A DNA stretch of 64,000 nt from Eledone cirrhosa (GCA_964016885.1 OZ024742.1:150226001-150290000); one strand, 5' to 3'; shown: positions 33,471 to 54,310, counted from the stretch's first letter. Notes: generated by a model not told the origin, from the sequence alone. Translations and numbers: made by a program.

Positions 33471-34811
33471 CAAATTATCAATTTATGAACAAATAGCTTT
33501 AAGGAGAAAATTCTTGACCTCACCAGTCACTTATTTGAAGGGATTTTATTGTAATAACCTTTAAAAAAAACACGTCACAAATAAAACTAGATCGTCTTTT
33601 ACTTGGTAGGTTGAAAGCGCATTTCGCTAAAATTAAAACTGACTAAATTGTACAATCAACAAAATCTTTGCATTTAGGTAGGACCAATACCGATTAATAA
33701 AATAGGAAATTCCTTCGTTTTTACAGCACCCGATGAGTTTTTACGTTGCTTCATTATAGTTACCTAAAAAAATTGTTTAAAGCCTTTCATTATTTCCATT
33801 GTTCAAATCCCGCCGAGGTTAACTTTGCCTTTCATCCTTACGGGGTCGATAAAATAAAGTACCAGTCATGCACTGGGGTAATTGCTGGCCTTGAGCCAAA
33901 CGTAGAAACAATTATTAACTTCTTTTTTCGGTGATCCAAGCCAACACTAAAAGCATGGGTGAAAAACAATACTGCTCTGTTTTCAGCAATCCTGATATGA
34001 CTGATCTCGTTTGTATCAGTGATGTTAATCCCCTAATACACTATATCTAACATAACGGTTGGCGCCCTCGATGTCTTCGTGGGAATAAATGTAATTAAAT
34101 GCAGTTCAGCAACAGGCCCTGATAGGTACTCTGATAGTCTTCTGAAGTTGTATCGACACCAACTTGCATCTCGTCTAGCTAATCTGTAGAGGAACTCAAT
34201 TATTATTACCTACTACCCCACCCCATTTCTTCCCTATATCTACTGTCTGCCGTTAGTTTTTGCCTGATGGCCCTGTGATAAACAGGCGAAAGTCCAGAGT
34301 AACAAGATTCACTTTTTAGCTTTAATATATATATATATGGAGTGTAACTTGGAGTTACTGCAGGTACACCCAGGTGAACACTCGATGTTTAGGTTCACTT
34401 CTGTATATATAGGAACGATCGACTTTCGTCAAATGGACCGTGGAAACAATGTTTCCATTGGTCTTTACAATTGCTAATACTATCTATCGGTCGCAACTCC
34501 AGGTAGAAGGAGCAACGTGAAATAAAGTGTCTTGCTCAAGGACATAACGCATCACTCGGTCCAGGAATCGAACTCACAACCTCACGATTGCGAATCCAAT
34601 TCTCTAACCACTCAGCCACACGCCTTCACGAAACGGCTTGAGCTCTGCCGTCGGGGTCCTGAACCTTTTCCTATTACCCACTCTTCCTCCGTTATATATA
34701 TATGTGTGTGTGTGTGTGTGTATGTGTGTGCGTGTGCATGTACGTATATATATATATATATATATATATATATATATATATATATATATGTGTGTGTGTG
34801 TGTATGTATTA

Positions 34812-35372
34812 GATATTAATTTAACGATGGAAATAACAACTAAGTAAAGTTATTTTACCTATTCATATCATTATTTTACGATCGTTTCGGAGGGTTGATC
34901 ATATTGACATATTGACTGGTCTACAGCAGTTATATAAATGTATACTATCAGACATAATATATAGGTTCGATCAGACCGTCTTCTTCGGAAACAATGAAGT
35001 TAGAATATTTATTGGTAGTATATAAACACGGTAGATACACAAATAGACATACCATATAAATATATATTGCAGACTACCTCCTTAGATTGATGTAGACTAA
35101 AGGTTCTCAACGAGGGGTCGTTAGGGCGGCCTTTATGCAGTAAGGGGGCGTTTGAAACTTTGAGGGCGCTAGAGGCCCCTTTAGTTTGGTAAGTTTTATA
35201 AGTCATATTTGTACGTCTCTTAGACAGTCAGTGATTTGAATGAAGAAATCAAAGAAAATAAATTAAAGAAGCTTGTCAACGAATTCCCTAGGGAGATAAA
35301 AGAAAATCAAAAGAAATCAAAGAGAATAAAAGTAAAGACTACTTCAACAAAAATGATAAGAAGAAGCAATGG
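34812..35372 (-). mobile_element. Penelope-like 3' fragment carrying a variant hammerhead (34868-34997)
   Basis: Minus strand: TCATTGTTT-CCGAAGA-(long stem II ..TGATC/GATCA..)-GAAA-CGATCG-TA-AAATAATGA; flanked by microsatellites. Confidence 0.55.
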
Positions 35373-35699
35373 TGGTGAACATACACACACATACATACAT
35401 ACATACATACACACACATACATACATACACATACACACACATATATATACACACAGGCCGGCGTTAGTGTTTGATGAAGTTGAGAACCCGGTCAACTTTC
35501 AGCCAGAAGTGTGGTATTTAATGTCCCTAGGTTTAAAATCTGGCGACAAAAATGTTCTCGTTACCAAAAAAAGAAGACATAGATCATATCAACATCCTTA
35601 CACACTTAAATATAAATGCATGTATATATACAAATGTATAAATGCATAGCTATATACATACGTAAATGTATGTATATATGTATGTATGTATGTATATAG

Positions 35700-37410
35700 A
35701 TTTATATATATATATATATATATATATATACATATATATATATATATATATACATACATACATATATATATATATATATATATATATATATATATATATA
35801 TATACATATATATATATATACATACATATATATATAAATATACATACATATATATATATATATATATATATATATAAATATACATACATATATATATAAA
35901 TATACATACATATATATATAAATATACATACATATAAATATACATACATACATGTATATATATATATATATATATATAAATCTACATACATACATATTTA
36001 TATATATATATATATAAATCTACATACATACATATTTATATATATATATATATATATATATATATATATATATATATATATATATATATATATATATAAA
36101 AATCTACATACATATATATATATATATATATATATAAATTTACATACATATATATATATATAAATCTACATACATACATATATATATATATATATATATA
36201 TAATTTTCTTGGTCGTGTTTTCGGCTGTGCGAATGATTGTTTAAGCATCGTCTCAGTGTGTTGGTATTAAACGTTAGTTATAGCTCTGGTTTATCCAAAC
36301 TATTGAGCACTTTGCCACACATTTCGAAGATTGTGTTTCGTTATTTCGTGGGCCGTGGTTCCGATTCTCGATAATTTATTTGTATTTATCTCCAGTCTTT
36401 AGTTATTGATCAGTTAATTTTATTGATTTTTTAGTTGATCCTATTGACTGATGAATAGCTCATGTTAATTTTAACCCGTCTGTTGAGAACTCTAATTCGA
36501 TATGTGATATTTTGTATTTTTACAATAATATACACTACTGAATTCATTCGCCTAATATAGGGGTTCCCTCCCTTGCTAGTCCCCACGTGGATTTAGTAAC
36601 TGGTTCCCTTGTATTATTGAACTAAACGTCTGTTGAAAAAGTGGCTTCCTTGTTCATCATCTTACCAGAAGCCGGATATTTTTTATGTAAGCTGACGGTA
36701 ACTGATTTAGGAGCCTCAGAAACCCAAATGCTAGAATTTACCATCTTTCCAGGGGGCCCGGGTAAATTTTTCATTCATATATATTTTTATTTGTCTGACC
36801 CGAATTTTCTTGGTCGTGTTTTCGGCTGTGCGAATGATTGTTTAAGCATCGTCTCAGTGTGTTGGTATTAAACGTTAGTTATAGCTCTGGTTTATCCAAA
36901 CTATTGAGCACTTTGCCACACATTTCGAAGATTGTGTTTCGTTATTTCGTGGGCCGTGGTTCCGATTCTCGATAATTTATTTATATATATATATATATAT
37001 ATATATATATATATATATATATATATATATATATAAATCTACATACATACATATATATATATATATATATATATATATATATATATATATATATATAAAT
37101 CTACATACATACATATATATATATATATATATATATATATATATTTATATATATATAAATCTACATACATATATATATATATATATATATATATATATTT
37201 ATATATATATAAATCTACATACATATATATATATATATATATATATTTATATATATATAAATCTACATACATATATATATATATATATATATATATATAT
37301 ATATATATATAAATCTACATACATACATATATTTATATGTATATATATATATATATATCTATATATATTTATATATATATATATATATATATATATATAT
37401 ATATATATAT
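35700..37410. repeat. (TA)n / AAATCTACATACATAC(AT)n compound mini-microsatellite, interrupted by insertions
   Basis: Directly visible; the same unit resumes at 41387-41660 after the Penelope-like element. Confidence 0.9.
36202..36982 (+). mobile_element. Non-coding 1.3-mer element: 601-bp unit with a 180-bp terminal direct repeat, inserted in (TA)n
   Basis: 36202-36381 matches 36803-36982 (identical by eye); TA arrays on both sides; no ORF with recognisable motifs. Confidence 0.75.
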
Positions 37411-52200: not shown

Positions 52201-53982
52201 TCTTTGCAGCGTAGCAGCGTTGTAGAAATATCGAAAGCGGTGGAGAGGGTCATATTGTGTTATGACTTGTCACACAACTTGGGATGGGTGAGTATGAACA
52301 GTGTATTAAAAAAAGGTAGGCTTAGCAATTCACTTGGAGCAAGAAGTGTTAACAACTAGGTTCGTTAGCTTACCGCACCAAGTTGAAATTAAAATATTTG
52401 GGAGAATGGGGTGCATAACGCGAAGAAGAGGACGCACATTGTATGGCTGGTCTACTATTTTTGCCTTTACTACAAAGTAGTATTACCAACAGGACTATTA
52501 CCATCAACTTTAACTCTACCACAACGAGCTACGCGGACATTCAACCTGTAAAGAAATAGCCGCCAAATCTCCCCCAAATTAAACAAAGAACATATCGCAC
52601 ATCGCAACCTCAGATACACAAAAAATGATGTGCGATGATCAGGGTTAAAACACATTTGATCGCAGATCTGCTCGATCGCGACTGGCTTGTACCTAAACAG
52701 CAATAAACCGAGGATGAACCAGGTTTGACATATTATAATTAGCAGCAAAATCTCCCTTAAATTATATACTCCCTGCTCATGAACGGAGGGGACATATTAG
52801 ATCTCGTATTTGTAGATACCCATAAAAGACAGACGGTTACGACTGGAATGATTTTGAACATAGGTTTGCTCAATGAGGGATGATATGGGGCTAAACCGCA
52901 ACGACAATGACGGCAGATTGCTAGAATCGTTTGAGTGTAGGATAAAATGCGTTATGGCCTTCATCCTTACGGGTCGATAAAATAAAGAATCAATGCTTAG
53001 CGTATTTATTAGTGTCAGACGAGATGCTTTGCAACATTTGTTTAAACTCGCTGTATTCTAAGTTCTTGAGTGTGAGACTTAATTATTCCATTACCAAACA
53101 GCAACAACAGTAAAAATAACAATTCATCGTCTACAGCTTTTGTGGTACAAGTAATTTCACAGCCAACAGCAATGTTTTTGCCATAATATCCGTCATGAAA
53201 GTCCAATCACTAATTCCAACTAATACTGTAGAGCACAAGTGATTAGCGTCTCATGTTTATCTGTAGAAACAGTATGCATGATATGTAAAAATCCCCCTCT
53301 CTCTTTTTTTCTTTTTCTCTCGTCTGTTACTAAGTATTTACACTAAACTGTGTGACCTCGCTTAGCCCCAATAGTTACTGTTTATCTGAATTGGATGTTA
53401 ATATAGTAGAAAGAGTCTCCAGTTACATTTATACGCATGCAGACGCTCACACATACGCGCCAGCACACATACCTGTTCACAAATACCTGTCCACATACAT
53501 ACATACATACATAGTCAACTTATAGGGCTTTCAGATTGACCATCCAATTTGAACCGGCACACGCCAGAGTGGCGCCGTAACTCGGGACGAAAGCCTGTCT
53601 TATACGAACCTTACCCCATTCGCTCCACCTTTCTACCTTAATCACATCTACCAACACGTATTTCCGTCTCTTCTCAAACGGCGCCACATTTATTTACAAA
53701 TGTGAAGCCTGGCGAAAGGTTGTTGACAAACAGCTTAGAAACATATTTAGCACGTACGGGTGTGTACGTGTGCATGTGTGCGAGTATATATGGATGAATA
53801 TATTTTAACCATTTTGAATCTCCCAGCCTACACTATATAGTTAGTTACGTTAAAAATTTAAATGGGCGAGTGAGTGTATTTGCCTGATATATGTTCTATG
53901 TATGTGCGATGTATAAGTATATATATATATATATATATATATATAATATAAGATCAAAAGATGGTTAAAGGAGTTCCATATA

Positions 53983-54049
53983 TTTTATTATGCGCATTTC
54001 AAAAACAAACATCATCAAGCAATAATATTTGTGTTTTCATCAGATAAAA
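53983..54049 (-). ncRNA. Canonical type-I hammerhead ribozyme in a short TA-flanked insert (53945-54185)
   Basis: TTTTAT-CTGATGA-AAACACAAATATTATTgcttGATGATGTTTGTTTTT-GAAA-TGCGCA-TA-ATAAAA. Confidence 0.75.
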
Positions 54050-54310
54050 CAGGAGAACATGATATGAAGGCTAAAAAACACTTGTGGATAGTGCAGTTTT
54101 AAATCAACACACAAACTGTAGAGTGCTTCTTATCCGATATCTGCATTGCTTTATTGTACTACAATAAAACTCACCTCCTACATTATATATATATATATAT
54201 ATATATATAATGGAAAAAATGAAATTTCATTTCTCATATAGTATGGAAAACGAAAAATCAGTGCTCAACCGGCATACCGCCTATGGAAGAACCTTAGCTA
54301 CCATTAGACA

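What the first reader, a model, noticed from the sequence alone, without database searches (positions are those of the whole stretch)
34629..54310. Hammerhead-ribozyme hotspot: an autonomous Penelope-like helper plus several unrelated non-coding retrozyme-like passengers, all in (TA)n
Seen: within ~20 kb there are hammerhead folds from at least five sequence-unrelated families (34868, 37453, 42656/42966, 45239/45832/46743, 53983) plus decayed ones (44351, 49196). The five share a short palindromic stem III (CGATCG, TATATA, CGCG, CTACGTAG, TGCGCA) and sit in microsatellites. Several show partial-tandem or 5'-inverted architecture like the RT/GIY-YIG element at 37411-41386. Established: PLE pLTRs carry minimal type-I hammerheads, and metazoan non-LTR retrozymes are tandem 170-400 nt hammerhead repeats that yield circular RNAs and are thought to be PLE-mobilised. 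Inference: a multi-family helper/parasite system that repeatedly targets and nests in TA arrays; these particular families may be undescribed.
Basis: partly seen in the sequence, partly recalled or inferred. Interest (0 to 1): 0.82.

Follow-up and report, generated by a model that had tools for sequence, protein, structure and literature searches.

The report
Penelope ends and hitch-hiking retrozymes
Most of these hammerhead RNA motifs are the cut-short ends of ordinary Penelope-like jumping genes, but two, likely three, belong to protein-free tandem repeats, and the two studied in depth land in TA microsatellites with the same two-armed footprint as those jumping genes, so they are likely carried by the jumping genes' enzymes.

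Summary
The hammerheads are real: 7 canonical type-I cores in 19.7 kb against 0.17 in shuffles. The reading needs three corrections. (1) It is not a special hotspot: 40 arbitrary 10-kb stretches of this genome held 61 cores. (2) Four 'passengers' (34868, 44351, 49196, 53983) are 5'-truncated 3' ends of coding Penelope-like elements. (3) The window's 'helper' is a frameshifted copy of a young Hydra-type family; nothing ties it specifically to the passengers. Two families are true non-coding retrozyme-type repeats: a 310-nt unit (16,492 motif hits genome-wide) and a 593-nt unit (6,258). They insert into (TA)n as head-to-head arrays with fixed 3' ends away from the cleavage site. In 46 of 46 classifiable two-armed insertions one arm has the short end and the other the long end, as in 12 of 12 coding copies. 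This footprint supports the published proposal that Penelope enzymes mobilise retrozymes, and it constrains the unsolved integration mechanism. Cleavage, expression and circles are untested. The scan noted similar systems earlier in other genomes. Verdict: new members of a known kind.

The parts
34630..34692 (+). 3' stub of family F7 (Hydra-like coding PLE): 3' half of its hammerhead and part of the tail, ending in (TA)n
   Evidence: sequence; family anatomy
34808..35090 (-). 3' end of older PLE family F1 (85-92% to relatives); variant hammerhead about 34868-34997 with core CCGAAGA, stem I CATTGTTT/AAATAATG, stem III CGATCG
   Evidence: endonuclease remnant attached upstream in L124
36203..36978 (+).
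   Evidence: hits in 10 other fetched loci (two are the same place), 67-82%; intact-looking motif, tandem units and a shared 3' end in L039, L082, L087, L122, L315
37412..41196 (-). Coding arm of Hydra-type PLE (F2): RT frame 41092-39476, GIY-YIG frame 39332-38847, frameshifted between them; 1.4-kb 3' UTR; hammerhead 37453-37518; short 3' end at 37412, about 50 nt past the cleavage site
41197..41386 (+). Inverted second arm of the same insertion: part of the pLTR plus tail, long 3' end (about 140 nt past the cleavage site) into (TA)n
   Evidence: sequence
41880..41966 (-). Tail stub of family F7 with its long 3' end in (TA)n
   Evidence: sequence
42533..43184 (-). 310-nt non-coding tandem array, 2.1 units; hammerheads 42656-42698 and 42966-43008 (CTGAAGA, U.U at base of stem II, CGCG loop, extended stem I); short 3' end at 42533
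43185..43251 (+). Inverted second arm of the 310-nt insertion, ending at the long 3' end
   Evidence: sequence
44259..44995 (-). 3' end of Neptune-type coding PLE family F6; decayed hammerhead about 44345-44385
   Evidence: CxxC linker, VGQTG endonuclease motif and RT YIDD upstream in longer copies
45208..45995 (+). 593-nt non-coding unit, 1.33 copies; hammerheads at 45239-45328 and 45832-45921 (TTGATAA, U3-A8 core; second has UU at the cleavage site); short 3' end
46544..47070 (+). Second, separate 593-family insertion (permuted, 0.9 unit); hammerhead 46743-46830; long 3' end
48972..49228 (.). Two-armed stub of family F7 (long end at 48972, short end near 49228); hammerhead 5' half missing on both arms
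53951..54183 (.). Two-armed stub of coding family F5: pLTR arm on minus with hammerhead 53983-54050 and short end at 53951; long tail inverted at 54111-54183

Best explanation
The region is a microsatellite-rich stretch into which several hammerhead-bearing elements have inserted: truncated ends of at least five coding Penelope-like families, and two, likely three, protein-free tandem repeats of the retrozyme kind that are likely integrated by Penelope-like enzymes. Shown: family membership by longer copies, tandem arrays without any attached reading frame, (TA)n at the 3' ends, fixed 3' ends 80-245 nt past the predicted cleavage site, head-to-head arms that mostly overlap by 1-5 bases at the joint, one short and one long end per two-armed insertion, and shared haplotypes between arms. 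Inferred: a Penelope-type RT/GIY-YIG complex nicks both strands of a TA array and primes reverse transcription from both DNA ends at two fixed internal sites that bracket the 'tail' of the RNA, one site per DNA end, after which the two cDNAs are joined through microhomology. Predicted, untested: the 310-nt and 593-nt RNAs self-cleave (the 310-nt one probably as a dimer) and form unit-length circles.
For: Coding links: F5 endonuclease then 3' UTR then hammerhead without TA between in L121 and L330; F7 in 7 of 12 loci; F6 GIY-YIG or RT upstream in L169, L173, L174, L176, L177, L225; F1 in L124. Non-coding status: in the 383 loci then held, the 310 and 593 hammerheads had a same-strand endonuclease hit within 3 kb upstream 4 and 3 times, always with (TA)n between, whereas F2 had 24 of 30 without; arrays reach 14-16 units per locus. 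End rule: 310 family 14 of 14 two-armed loci among 18 examined plus 4 of 4 position-sampled loci, 1 unclear; 593 family 15 of 15 among 27 plus 13 of 13, with 1 other end and 1 unclear; F2 12 of 12 among 25. Arms of a locus differ less than arms of different loci: 593 0.84% against 1.20% (3 of 2000 permutations as low), F2 0.85% against 2.41% (0 of 2000), F5 1.10% against 1.97% (0 of 2000). Circular folding z -4.3 (310), -3.8 (593), -7.5 (318-nt sister) against -0.6 and +0.5 for coding-element ends. Two-sided changes between the 310 and 318 families in the hairpin before the short end (97% of cells paired, 2 pairs changed on both sides) and in stems I and II by eye. Literature: Hydra elements insert into (TA)n (PMC8557442); a purified PLE protein cuts and extends both strands and starts at two internal sites that define the tail (PMC11167929).
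Against: No coding partner with ends like the 310 or 593 units was found, so the helper is unidentified; only about 395 loci of a 3.0-Gb genome were read. For the 310 family the arm-sharing test was weak (0.44% against 0.58%, 113 of 2000 permutations). The sister 318-nt family has one apparent long/long insertion (L235) beside 6 short/long and 2 unclear. Private variants within arrays fit no single template model: some are shared by all units, some by adjacent units of one arm only, some are mirror-placed about the joint, so local duplication or conversion has also acted. In vitro the anole PLE showed no strand difference in start site and needed no hammerhead cleavage, and 8 of 9 Xenopus retrozyme dimers did not cleave. 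The control is not a probability, and its 9 rows are two or three related groups.
Confidence: 0.8

Rival explanations
1. All units, the 310 and 593 included, are only terminal repeats or one-off deletion products of coding Penelope-like elements, locally amplified as satellites.
For: True for four families. Adjacent units sometimes share private variants, which points to local duplication. Li et al. 2026 propose this route for the birth of retrozymes.
Against: Units are dispersed over many contigs at 95-100% identity with thousands of copies; each two-armed locus has its own random joint and (TA)n at both outer ends; diverged subfamilies (79-92% for 593, about 65% for 310/318) keep the same non-coding circular permutation; no attached endonuclease.
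Confidence: 0.1
2. The second arm is not primed from the target but made by fold-back: the first cDNA primes on itself and is copied outward until the endonuclease cuts at the other tail boundary.
For: Some private variants sit mirror-wise about the joint (L011, L005); PMC3846280 reads junction palindromes as self-priming; PMC8557442 suggests the tail comes from endonuclease resolution. It would also give shared haplotypes.
Against: In the window's coding copy neither arm is contained in the other (coding arm starts about 58 nt past the cleavage site, inverted arm about 45 nt before it; sequence); in L131 two recurrent variants of one arm are missing from the mirror positions; inner ends of the two arms usually lie far apart on the unit.
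Confidence: 0.25
3. The window is a special nesting hotspot built around one autonomous helper.
For: 3.6 cores per 10 kb against 1.3-1.5 on average; the rest of the window is nearly empty.
Against: 9 of 40 arbitrary 10-kb stretches have 3 or more cores, several with 3-4 different motif families; the local coding copy is frameshifted; the families differ in age (85% to 100%).
Confidence: 0.05

Closest known systems
Non-LTR retrozymes of animals (Cervera and de la Pena 2020, PMC7229834; Li, Clavereau and Pollet 2026, bioRxiv 10.64898/2026.07.22.740005)
   Same: Non-coding tandem units with a type-I hammerhead, GC under 50%, stable predicted circular fold, thousands of copies, monomers to multimers, co-existence with PLEs. 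The 310-nt hammerhead has the one-pair stem III with palindromic tetraloop and the U.U at the base of stem II described for the two axolotl motifs.
   Different: In the parts I read, these papers describe head-to-tail repeats and infer PLE mobilisation from co-occurrence and pLTR homology; they do not describe head-to-head two-armed insertions, fixed short and long ends or (TA)n targeting. 593 nt exceeds the 170-400 nt of the 2020 paper but lies within the 51-972 bp of the 2026 preprint. No homologous coding pLTR was found here. Expression and circles are not shown here.
Hydra clade of C-terminal EN+ Penelope-like elements (Craig et al. 2021, PMC8557442)
   Same: F2 has RWR (RWK-like), DKT, a CxCx5C linker, CxxC and CxH motifs, a C-terminal endonuclease, a hammerhead in the pLTR and (TA)n targets.
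   Different: About 3.8 kb with a 1.4-kb 3' UTR against 'generally under 3 kb'; very large and young family here (111 of 111 scored matches at 96-100% identity). Placement is by motifs, not by a tree.
Penelope insertion architecture with inverted pLTR and tail (Arkhipova et al. 2013, PMC3846280; Frangieh et al. 2024, PMC11167929)
   Same: Inverted 5'-truncated arm, tail on one arm, microhomology joints, two fixed internal start sites, AT-rich targets.
   Different: The tail is called optional or 'often at one end' and 30-40 bp; here it is about 30-165 nt by family and two-armed insertions pair one short with one long end almost without exception, in non-coding arrays too.
Minimal hammerheads of metazoan PLEs (Cervera and de la Pena 2014, PMC4209133)
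   Same: Mostly single motifs from truncated PLEs, many families per genome, opposite-strand pairs 100-700 bp apart, palindromic stem III, U3-A8 core variant.
   Different: Several motifs here have very long stems II (31-105 nt), and F1 has a U4C core.

Membership tests
Non-LTR retrozyme (310-nt and 593-nt units) | Type-I hammerhead in each unit | tested here: met
Non-LTR retrozyme (310-nt and 593-nt units) | Tandem repeats with at least two consecutive hammerhead-bearing units | tested here: met
   window arrays and loci with up to 14-16 (310) and 8 (593) motifs
Non-LTR retrozyme (310-nt and 593-nt units) | No protein coding, no attached RT or endonuclease, no LTR structure | tested here: met
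   limited to the loci fetched
Non-LTR retrozyme (310-nt and 593-nt units) | Stable self-paired circular fold | tested here: met
   predicted only: z -4.3 and -3.8; 55% and 62% paired, branched
Non-LTR retrozyme (310-nt and 593-nt units) | Self-cleavage in vitro | not testable with these tools
   needs transcription assays
Non-LTR retrozyme (310-nt and 593-nt units) | Expression as linear and circular unit-length RNA | tested here: inconclusive
   no usable RNA run
Non-LTR retrozyme (310-nt and 593-nt units) | Homology to the pLTR of a coding PLE (Li et al. 2026; found for part of the Xenopus families) | tested here: inconclusive
   no likeness to five local PLE ends; most PLE families of the genome were not sampled
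Non-LTR retrozyme (F1, F5, F6, F7) | Non-coding tandem unit independent of a coding element | tested here: not met
   longer copies run into endonuclease or RT sequence; F1 rests on one locus
Hydra-clade PLE (F2) | Single ORF with RT and C-terminal GIY-YIG endonuclease | tested here: met
   745-aa ORF in L211-L214, YRDD and YVGST motifs; window copy frameshifted; Pfam and PDB gave no hit, so domain names rest on motifs and recall
Hydra-clade PLE (F2) | RWK-like, DKT, CxCx5C, CxxC and CxH motifs | tested here: met
   against section 11 of PMC8557442
Hydra-clade PLE (F2) | Hammerhead in pLTR and insertion into (TA)n | tested here: met
Hydra-clade PLE (F2) | Phylogenetic grouping with reference Hydra RTs | not tested
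   no named reference proteins were on hand; the 17 homologues carry no informative names
Neptune-type PLE (F6) | Zn-finger-like CxxC linker between RT and C-terminal GIY-YIG | tested here: met
   CSRPRCNTC then VYGLRC..YVGQTG in L169, L174, L177; the clade label is from PMC8557442 passages and recall, no tree

The most novel reading that the evidence does not exclude
One Penelope-type enzyme complex primes both broken ends of a TA microsatellite on a single RNA, one end at each boundary of the tail, and on circular retrozyme RNAs both reverse transcriptases roll around the circle, writing head-to-head arrays of up to 16 units. The strict one-short, one-long rule would then be the genomic footprint that explains the tandem and inverted structures of all Penelope-like elements, and the hairpin conserved just before the short end of the 310/318 family would be the signal that parasites copy to be picked up.
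Probability: 0.3. Interest if true: 0.72.

Novelty: new member of a known kind. Interest (0 to 1): 0.42.

Why it matters
That Penelope-like elements carry hammerheads, leave many truncated ends, prefer (TA)n and probably mobilise retrozymes is in print. What this genome adds is a very young, very large natural experiment: tens of thousands of near-identical retrozyme units beside coding families with intact ORFs. The shared footprint is more direct support for trans-mobilisation than co-occurrence, and the one-short, one-long rule is a sharp constraint on how Penelope integration makes inverted and tandem products, which PMC8557442 and PMC11167929 call unresolved. The rule can be tested at once on the whole assembly and in the existing in vitro system.

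Tried and rejected
Rfam on the whole window was swamped by microRNA models matching microsatellites; on 36200-36985 it gave nothing useful. The repeat finder was swamped by TA arrays. Pfam and PDB sequence searches did not recognise the PLE protein. No tRNA gene in 33000-56000. Sequencing runs: no RNA holder listed; laying 4 of the 6 listed runs showed 645 contigs in X1 and one 340-base contig (unit plus 30) in each of X4, X5 and X6, of unknown kind, which says nothing on expression. A suspected link of the 318-nt sister family to an endonuclease in L251 fell apart on reading: other repeats and an inverted arm lie between. The first fetch for family F7 took the wrong flank and the next longer copies ended in TA before one search found the link. 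A visual likeness between F1 and the 593 tail, and between F1 and F2, was not significant (z at most 1.2). A simple rolling-circle reading from private variants was not upheld. A further set of position-sampled 310 loci could not be read, so that check rests on 5 loci. Literature searches listed no paper whose title, abstract start or read passages state the short/long pairing rule or describe these families; most listed papers were not opened, subscription papers are missing, and supplements were not read. Earlier-findings look-ups by place, by sequence and two by words were empty.
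Full report
Setting. The window is G000:C3:150226001-150290000 of a 2,996-Mb assembly. My guess that it is a cephalopod comes from recall of its repeats and was not tested. Family labels F1-F7, '310', '318', '593' are mine.

Observation. A type-I hammerhead descriptor (N3-UGA-N-N8-A with a 3-8 pair, stem II, GAAA, stem III, UH, stem I of about 5 pairs) found 8 cores in the window, 7 of them in 34629-54310; 30 block shuffles gave 0.17 on average in that region. 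The 34868 motif has core CCGAAGA and a weak base of stem II; this is the usual state in its family (15 CCGAAGA against 3 CTGAAGA). 44351 has lost G5, which 18 of 19 relatives keep. 49196 and 34629 hold only the 3' half of a motif. Rfam does not recognise them at its cut-offs.

Not a special hotspot. Forty 10-kb stretches taken at round coordinates on eight large contigs gave 61 cores in 399,800 bases, against 2, 3 and 2 in shuffles; 10 came from one A-rich repeat and are probably false; 20 stretches had none and 9 had three or more. The region has 3.6 per 10 kb and 22.6% microsatellite against 7.0% in the sample. Scaling 51 cores per 0.4 Mb suggests some hundred thousand motifs in the genome (rough inference). 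A stricter catalogue over the loci then held gave 56 motif classes, 33 in two or more loci.

The coding element. 37412-41386 is a Penelope-like element. Its RT region matched 111 of 111 scored places at 96-100% identity, many in open frames of about 745 aa. The intact relative L211 has RWR, DKT, CNCRDRSKC, CDLC, CRH, YRDD and YVGST, the motifs that PMC8557442 gives for the Hydra clade, almost all families of which insert into (TA)n (section 11). The window copy has 8 extra bases in two gaps and is split into two frames; whether this is real or an assembly slip in a homopolymer is unknown.

Four passengers are ends of coding elements. F5 (53983): L121 reads endonuclease, 1.07 kb of 3' UTR, hammerhead, tail, with no TA between; the random locus L330 does too; F5 aligns with F2 (z 5.5). 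F7 (34629, 41880, 48972-49228): searching with its upstream part, 7 of 12 loci have a Hydra-like endonuclease ending about 110 nt upstream on the same strand. F6 (44351): longer copies carry a CxxC linker, YVGQTG and, in L225, an RT. F1 (34868): one of 30 loci, L103/L124, has an endonuclease remnant attached and an inverted arm; the others share a pyrimidine-rich upstream tract. PMC4209133 already notes that most metazoan motifs of this kind are single and probably come from truncated PLEs.

Two, probably three, are non-coding tandem families. The 310-nt unit matches dispersed arrays at 98-100%; an exact motif pattern has 16,492 hits, reversed control 0, with up to 16 per locus. The 593-nt unit has 6,258 hits, control 0, with subfamilies down to about 80% that keep the same permuted unit. 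No endonuclease was attached to either without (TA)n between (4 and 3 chance neighbours). A sister family of about 318 nt, 65% alike to the 310 unit, turned up in a flank; between the two, stems I-III change sequence and keep pairing, and a hairpin just before the short end is kept with two-sided changes (few independent lineages). Circular folds are more stable than shuffles (z -4.3, -3.8, -7.5) while two coding-element ends are not. A third family at 36203-36978 (period 601) has a decayed motif in the window and an intact-looking one, with long stem III, in relatives that form tandems ending at one place before (TA)n; it was examined in six relatives only.

The footprint. 3' ends do not fall at the cleavage site. 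By the alignment ends (which run a few bases into TA) they cluster at +139 and +165 (310), +80 and +241 to +247 (593), +57 and +144 (F2). Two-armed insertions are head-to-head with 3' ends outward in (TA)n; 18 of 22 593-family joints overlap by 1-5 bases, while 310-family joints were less clean (7 of 17 overlapping). One arm has the short and the other the long end in 14 of 14 and 4 of 4 (310), 15 of 15 and 13 of 13 (593) and 12 of 12 (F2); set aside as unclassifiable were L354, L302 and L308, and L298 as a duplicate of L295. With independent 50:50 ends, 46 of 46 has probability about 1e-14 (arithmetic). Either arm of F2 can be the long one. F5 shows the same in about 15 loci but the query favoured such loci. 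The 318 family gave 6 short/long, 1 apparent long/long (L235), 2 unclear. Arms of a locus share haplotypes (weak for 310 in that sample, but all 11 two-armed loci among the first 100 position-ordered hits have one motif variant on both arms while at least 5 variants occur).

Mechanism. Established (PMC11167929): a purified PLE protein cuts and extends both strands of AT-rich DNA, starts reverse transcription at two internal RNA sites that bracket the tail, is predicted to be a dimer, and does not need hammerhead cleavage. Established (PMC3846280, PMC8557442): an inverted arm and a tail on one end are typical. Inference: here the two target ends are primed one at each site, probably by one complex, and the non-coding units present the same two sites to a PLE protein in trans. 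Unlike the anole case, each start site here ends in a few bases that match TA. Whether the template is one RNA, two sibling RNAs, a linear multimer or a circle is open: private variants are mixed. Which coding family is the helper is open; Hydra-type families are the best guess because they are young, abundant and TA-targeting.

Comparison and novelty. Retrozymes as tandem type-I hammerhead units that yield circles, with PLEs as candidate helpers, are described in PMC7229834; a 2026 preprint argues that they derive from PLEs. The families here are new members. I found no statement of the pairing rule or of two-armed retrozyme insertions in eight searches, within the limits given under Tried and rejected. 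What I saw of each paper: 10.64898/2026.07.22.740005 parts 1-3 of 5 (abstract to discussion; supplements closed, and they may list relevant families); PMC7229834 parts 2-3 of 6 and passages; PMC8557442 passages and section 11; PMC11167929 parts 1-2 of 4; PMC4209133 parts 1-2 of 4; PMC3846280 and PMC13282606 passages only; no supplements. The scan's notes list 26 related findings in at least 9 other genomes, 8 shown, among them a non-coding tandem repeat in TA arrays with a Penelope-type pattern.

Verdict. Real motifs, a partly right reading, known kinds of element. Interest 0.42, carried by the end-pairing rule and the size and youth of the system.

Noticed in passing
window 36203-36978: Third non-coding partial tandem (about 600 nt) with a U3-A8 hammerhead that has a long, branched stem III in relatives; likely a further retrozyme family able to cleave as a monomer.
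   Followed up: partly
L190:977-1463, L227-L251, L092: 318-nt sister family of the 310 unit (about 94% among copies, 2,643 first-look candidates) with a covarying hammerhead and a conserved hairpin (UUCG against GCAA loop) before the short end.
   Followed up: yes
L314, L328, L257, L125, L216 and others: More tandem hammerhead families with periods of about 420, 462-472 and 528 nt; several have short stems II and 4-nt palindromic loops (CTAG, GTAC, CATG).
   Followed up: no
L244:130-1480: A 38-nt piece around the short end of the 318 family is amplified about 30 times as a minisatellite next to a unit.
   Followed up: no
window 35595-35660 and 41655-41740: Inverted repeats flank the TA array that holds both the 601-nt element and the coding PLE, suggesting an older host element with an expanded microsatellite core.
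   Followed up: partly
window 46176-46540: A 347-nt repeat without a hammerhead lies between the two 593-family insertions; about 95% alike in some ten other fetched loci.
   Followed up: partly
runs X4, X5, X6: Three runs labelled as other organisms each hold one 340-base contig equal to a 310 unit plus 30 bases, with 5-6 differences; kind of run unknown.
   Followed up: no
L213 (G000:C4:320953500-320963400): Two full-length Hydra-type copies with open 745-aa frames stand head to head in one insertion.
   Followed up: no
window 12900-16700, 21500-21900, 55000-63900: Fragments of LINE-type reverse transcriptase frames, the longest 786 aa at 60421-62781, and a helicase-like fragment at 24744-25157 (labels from recall).
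   Followed up: no
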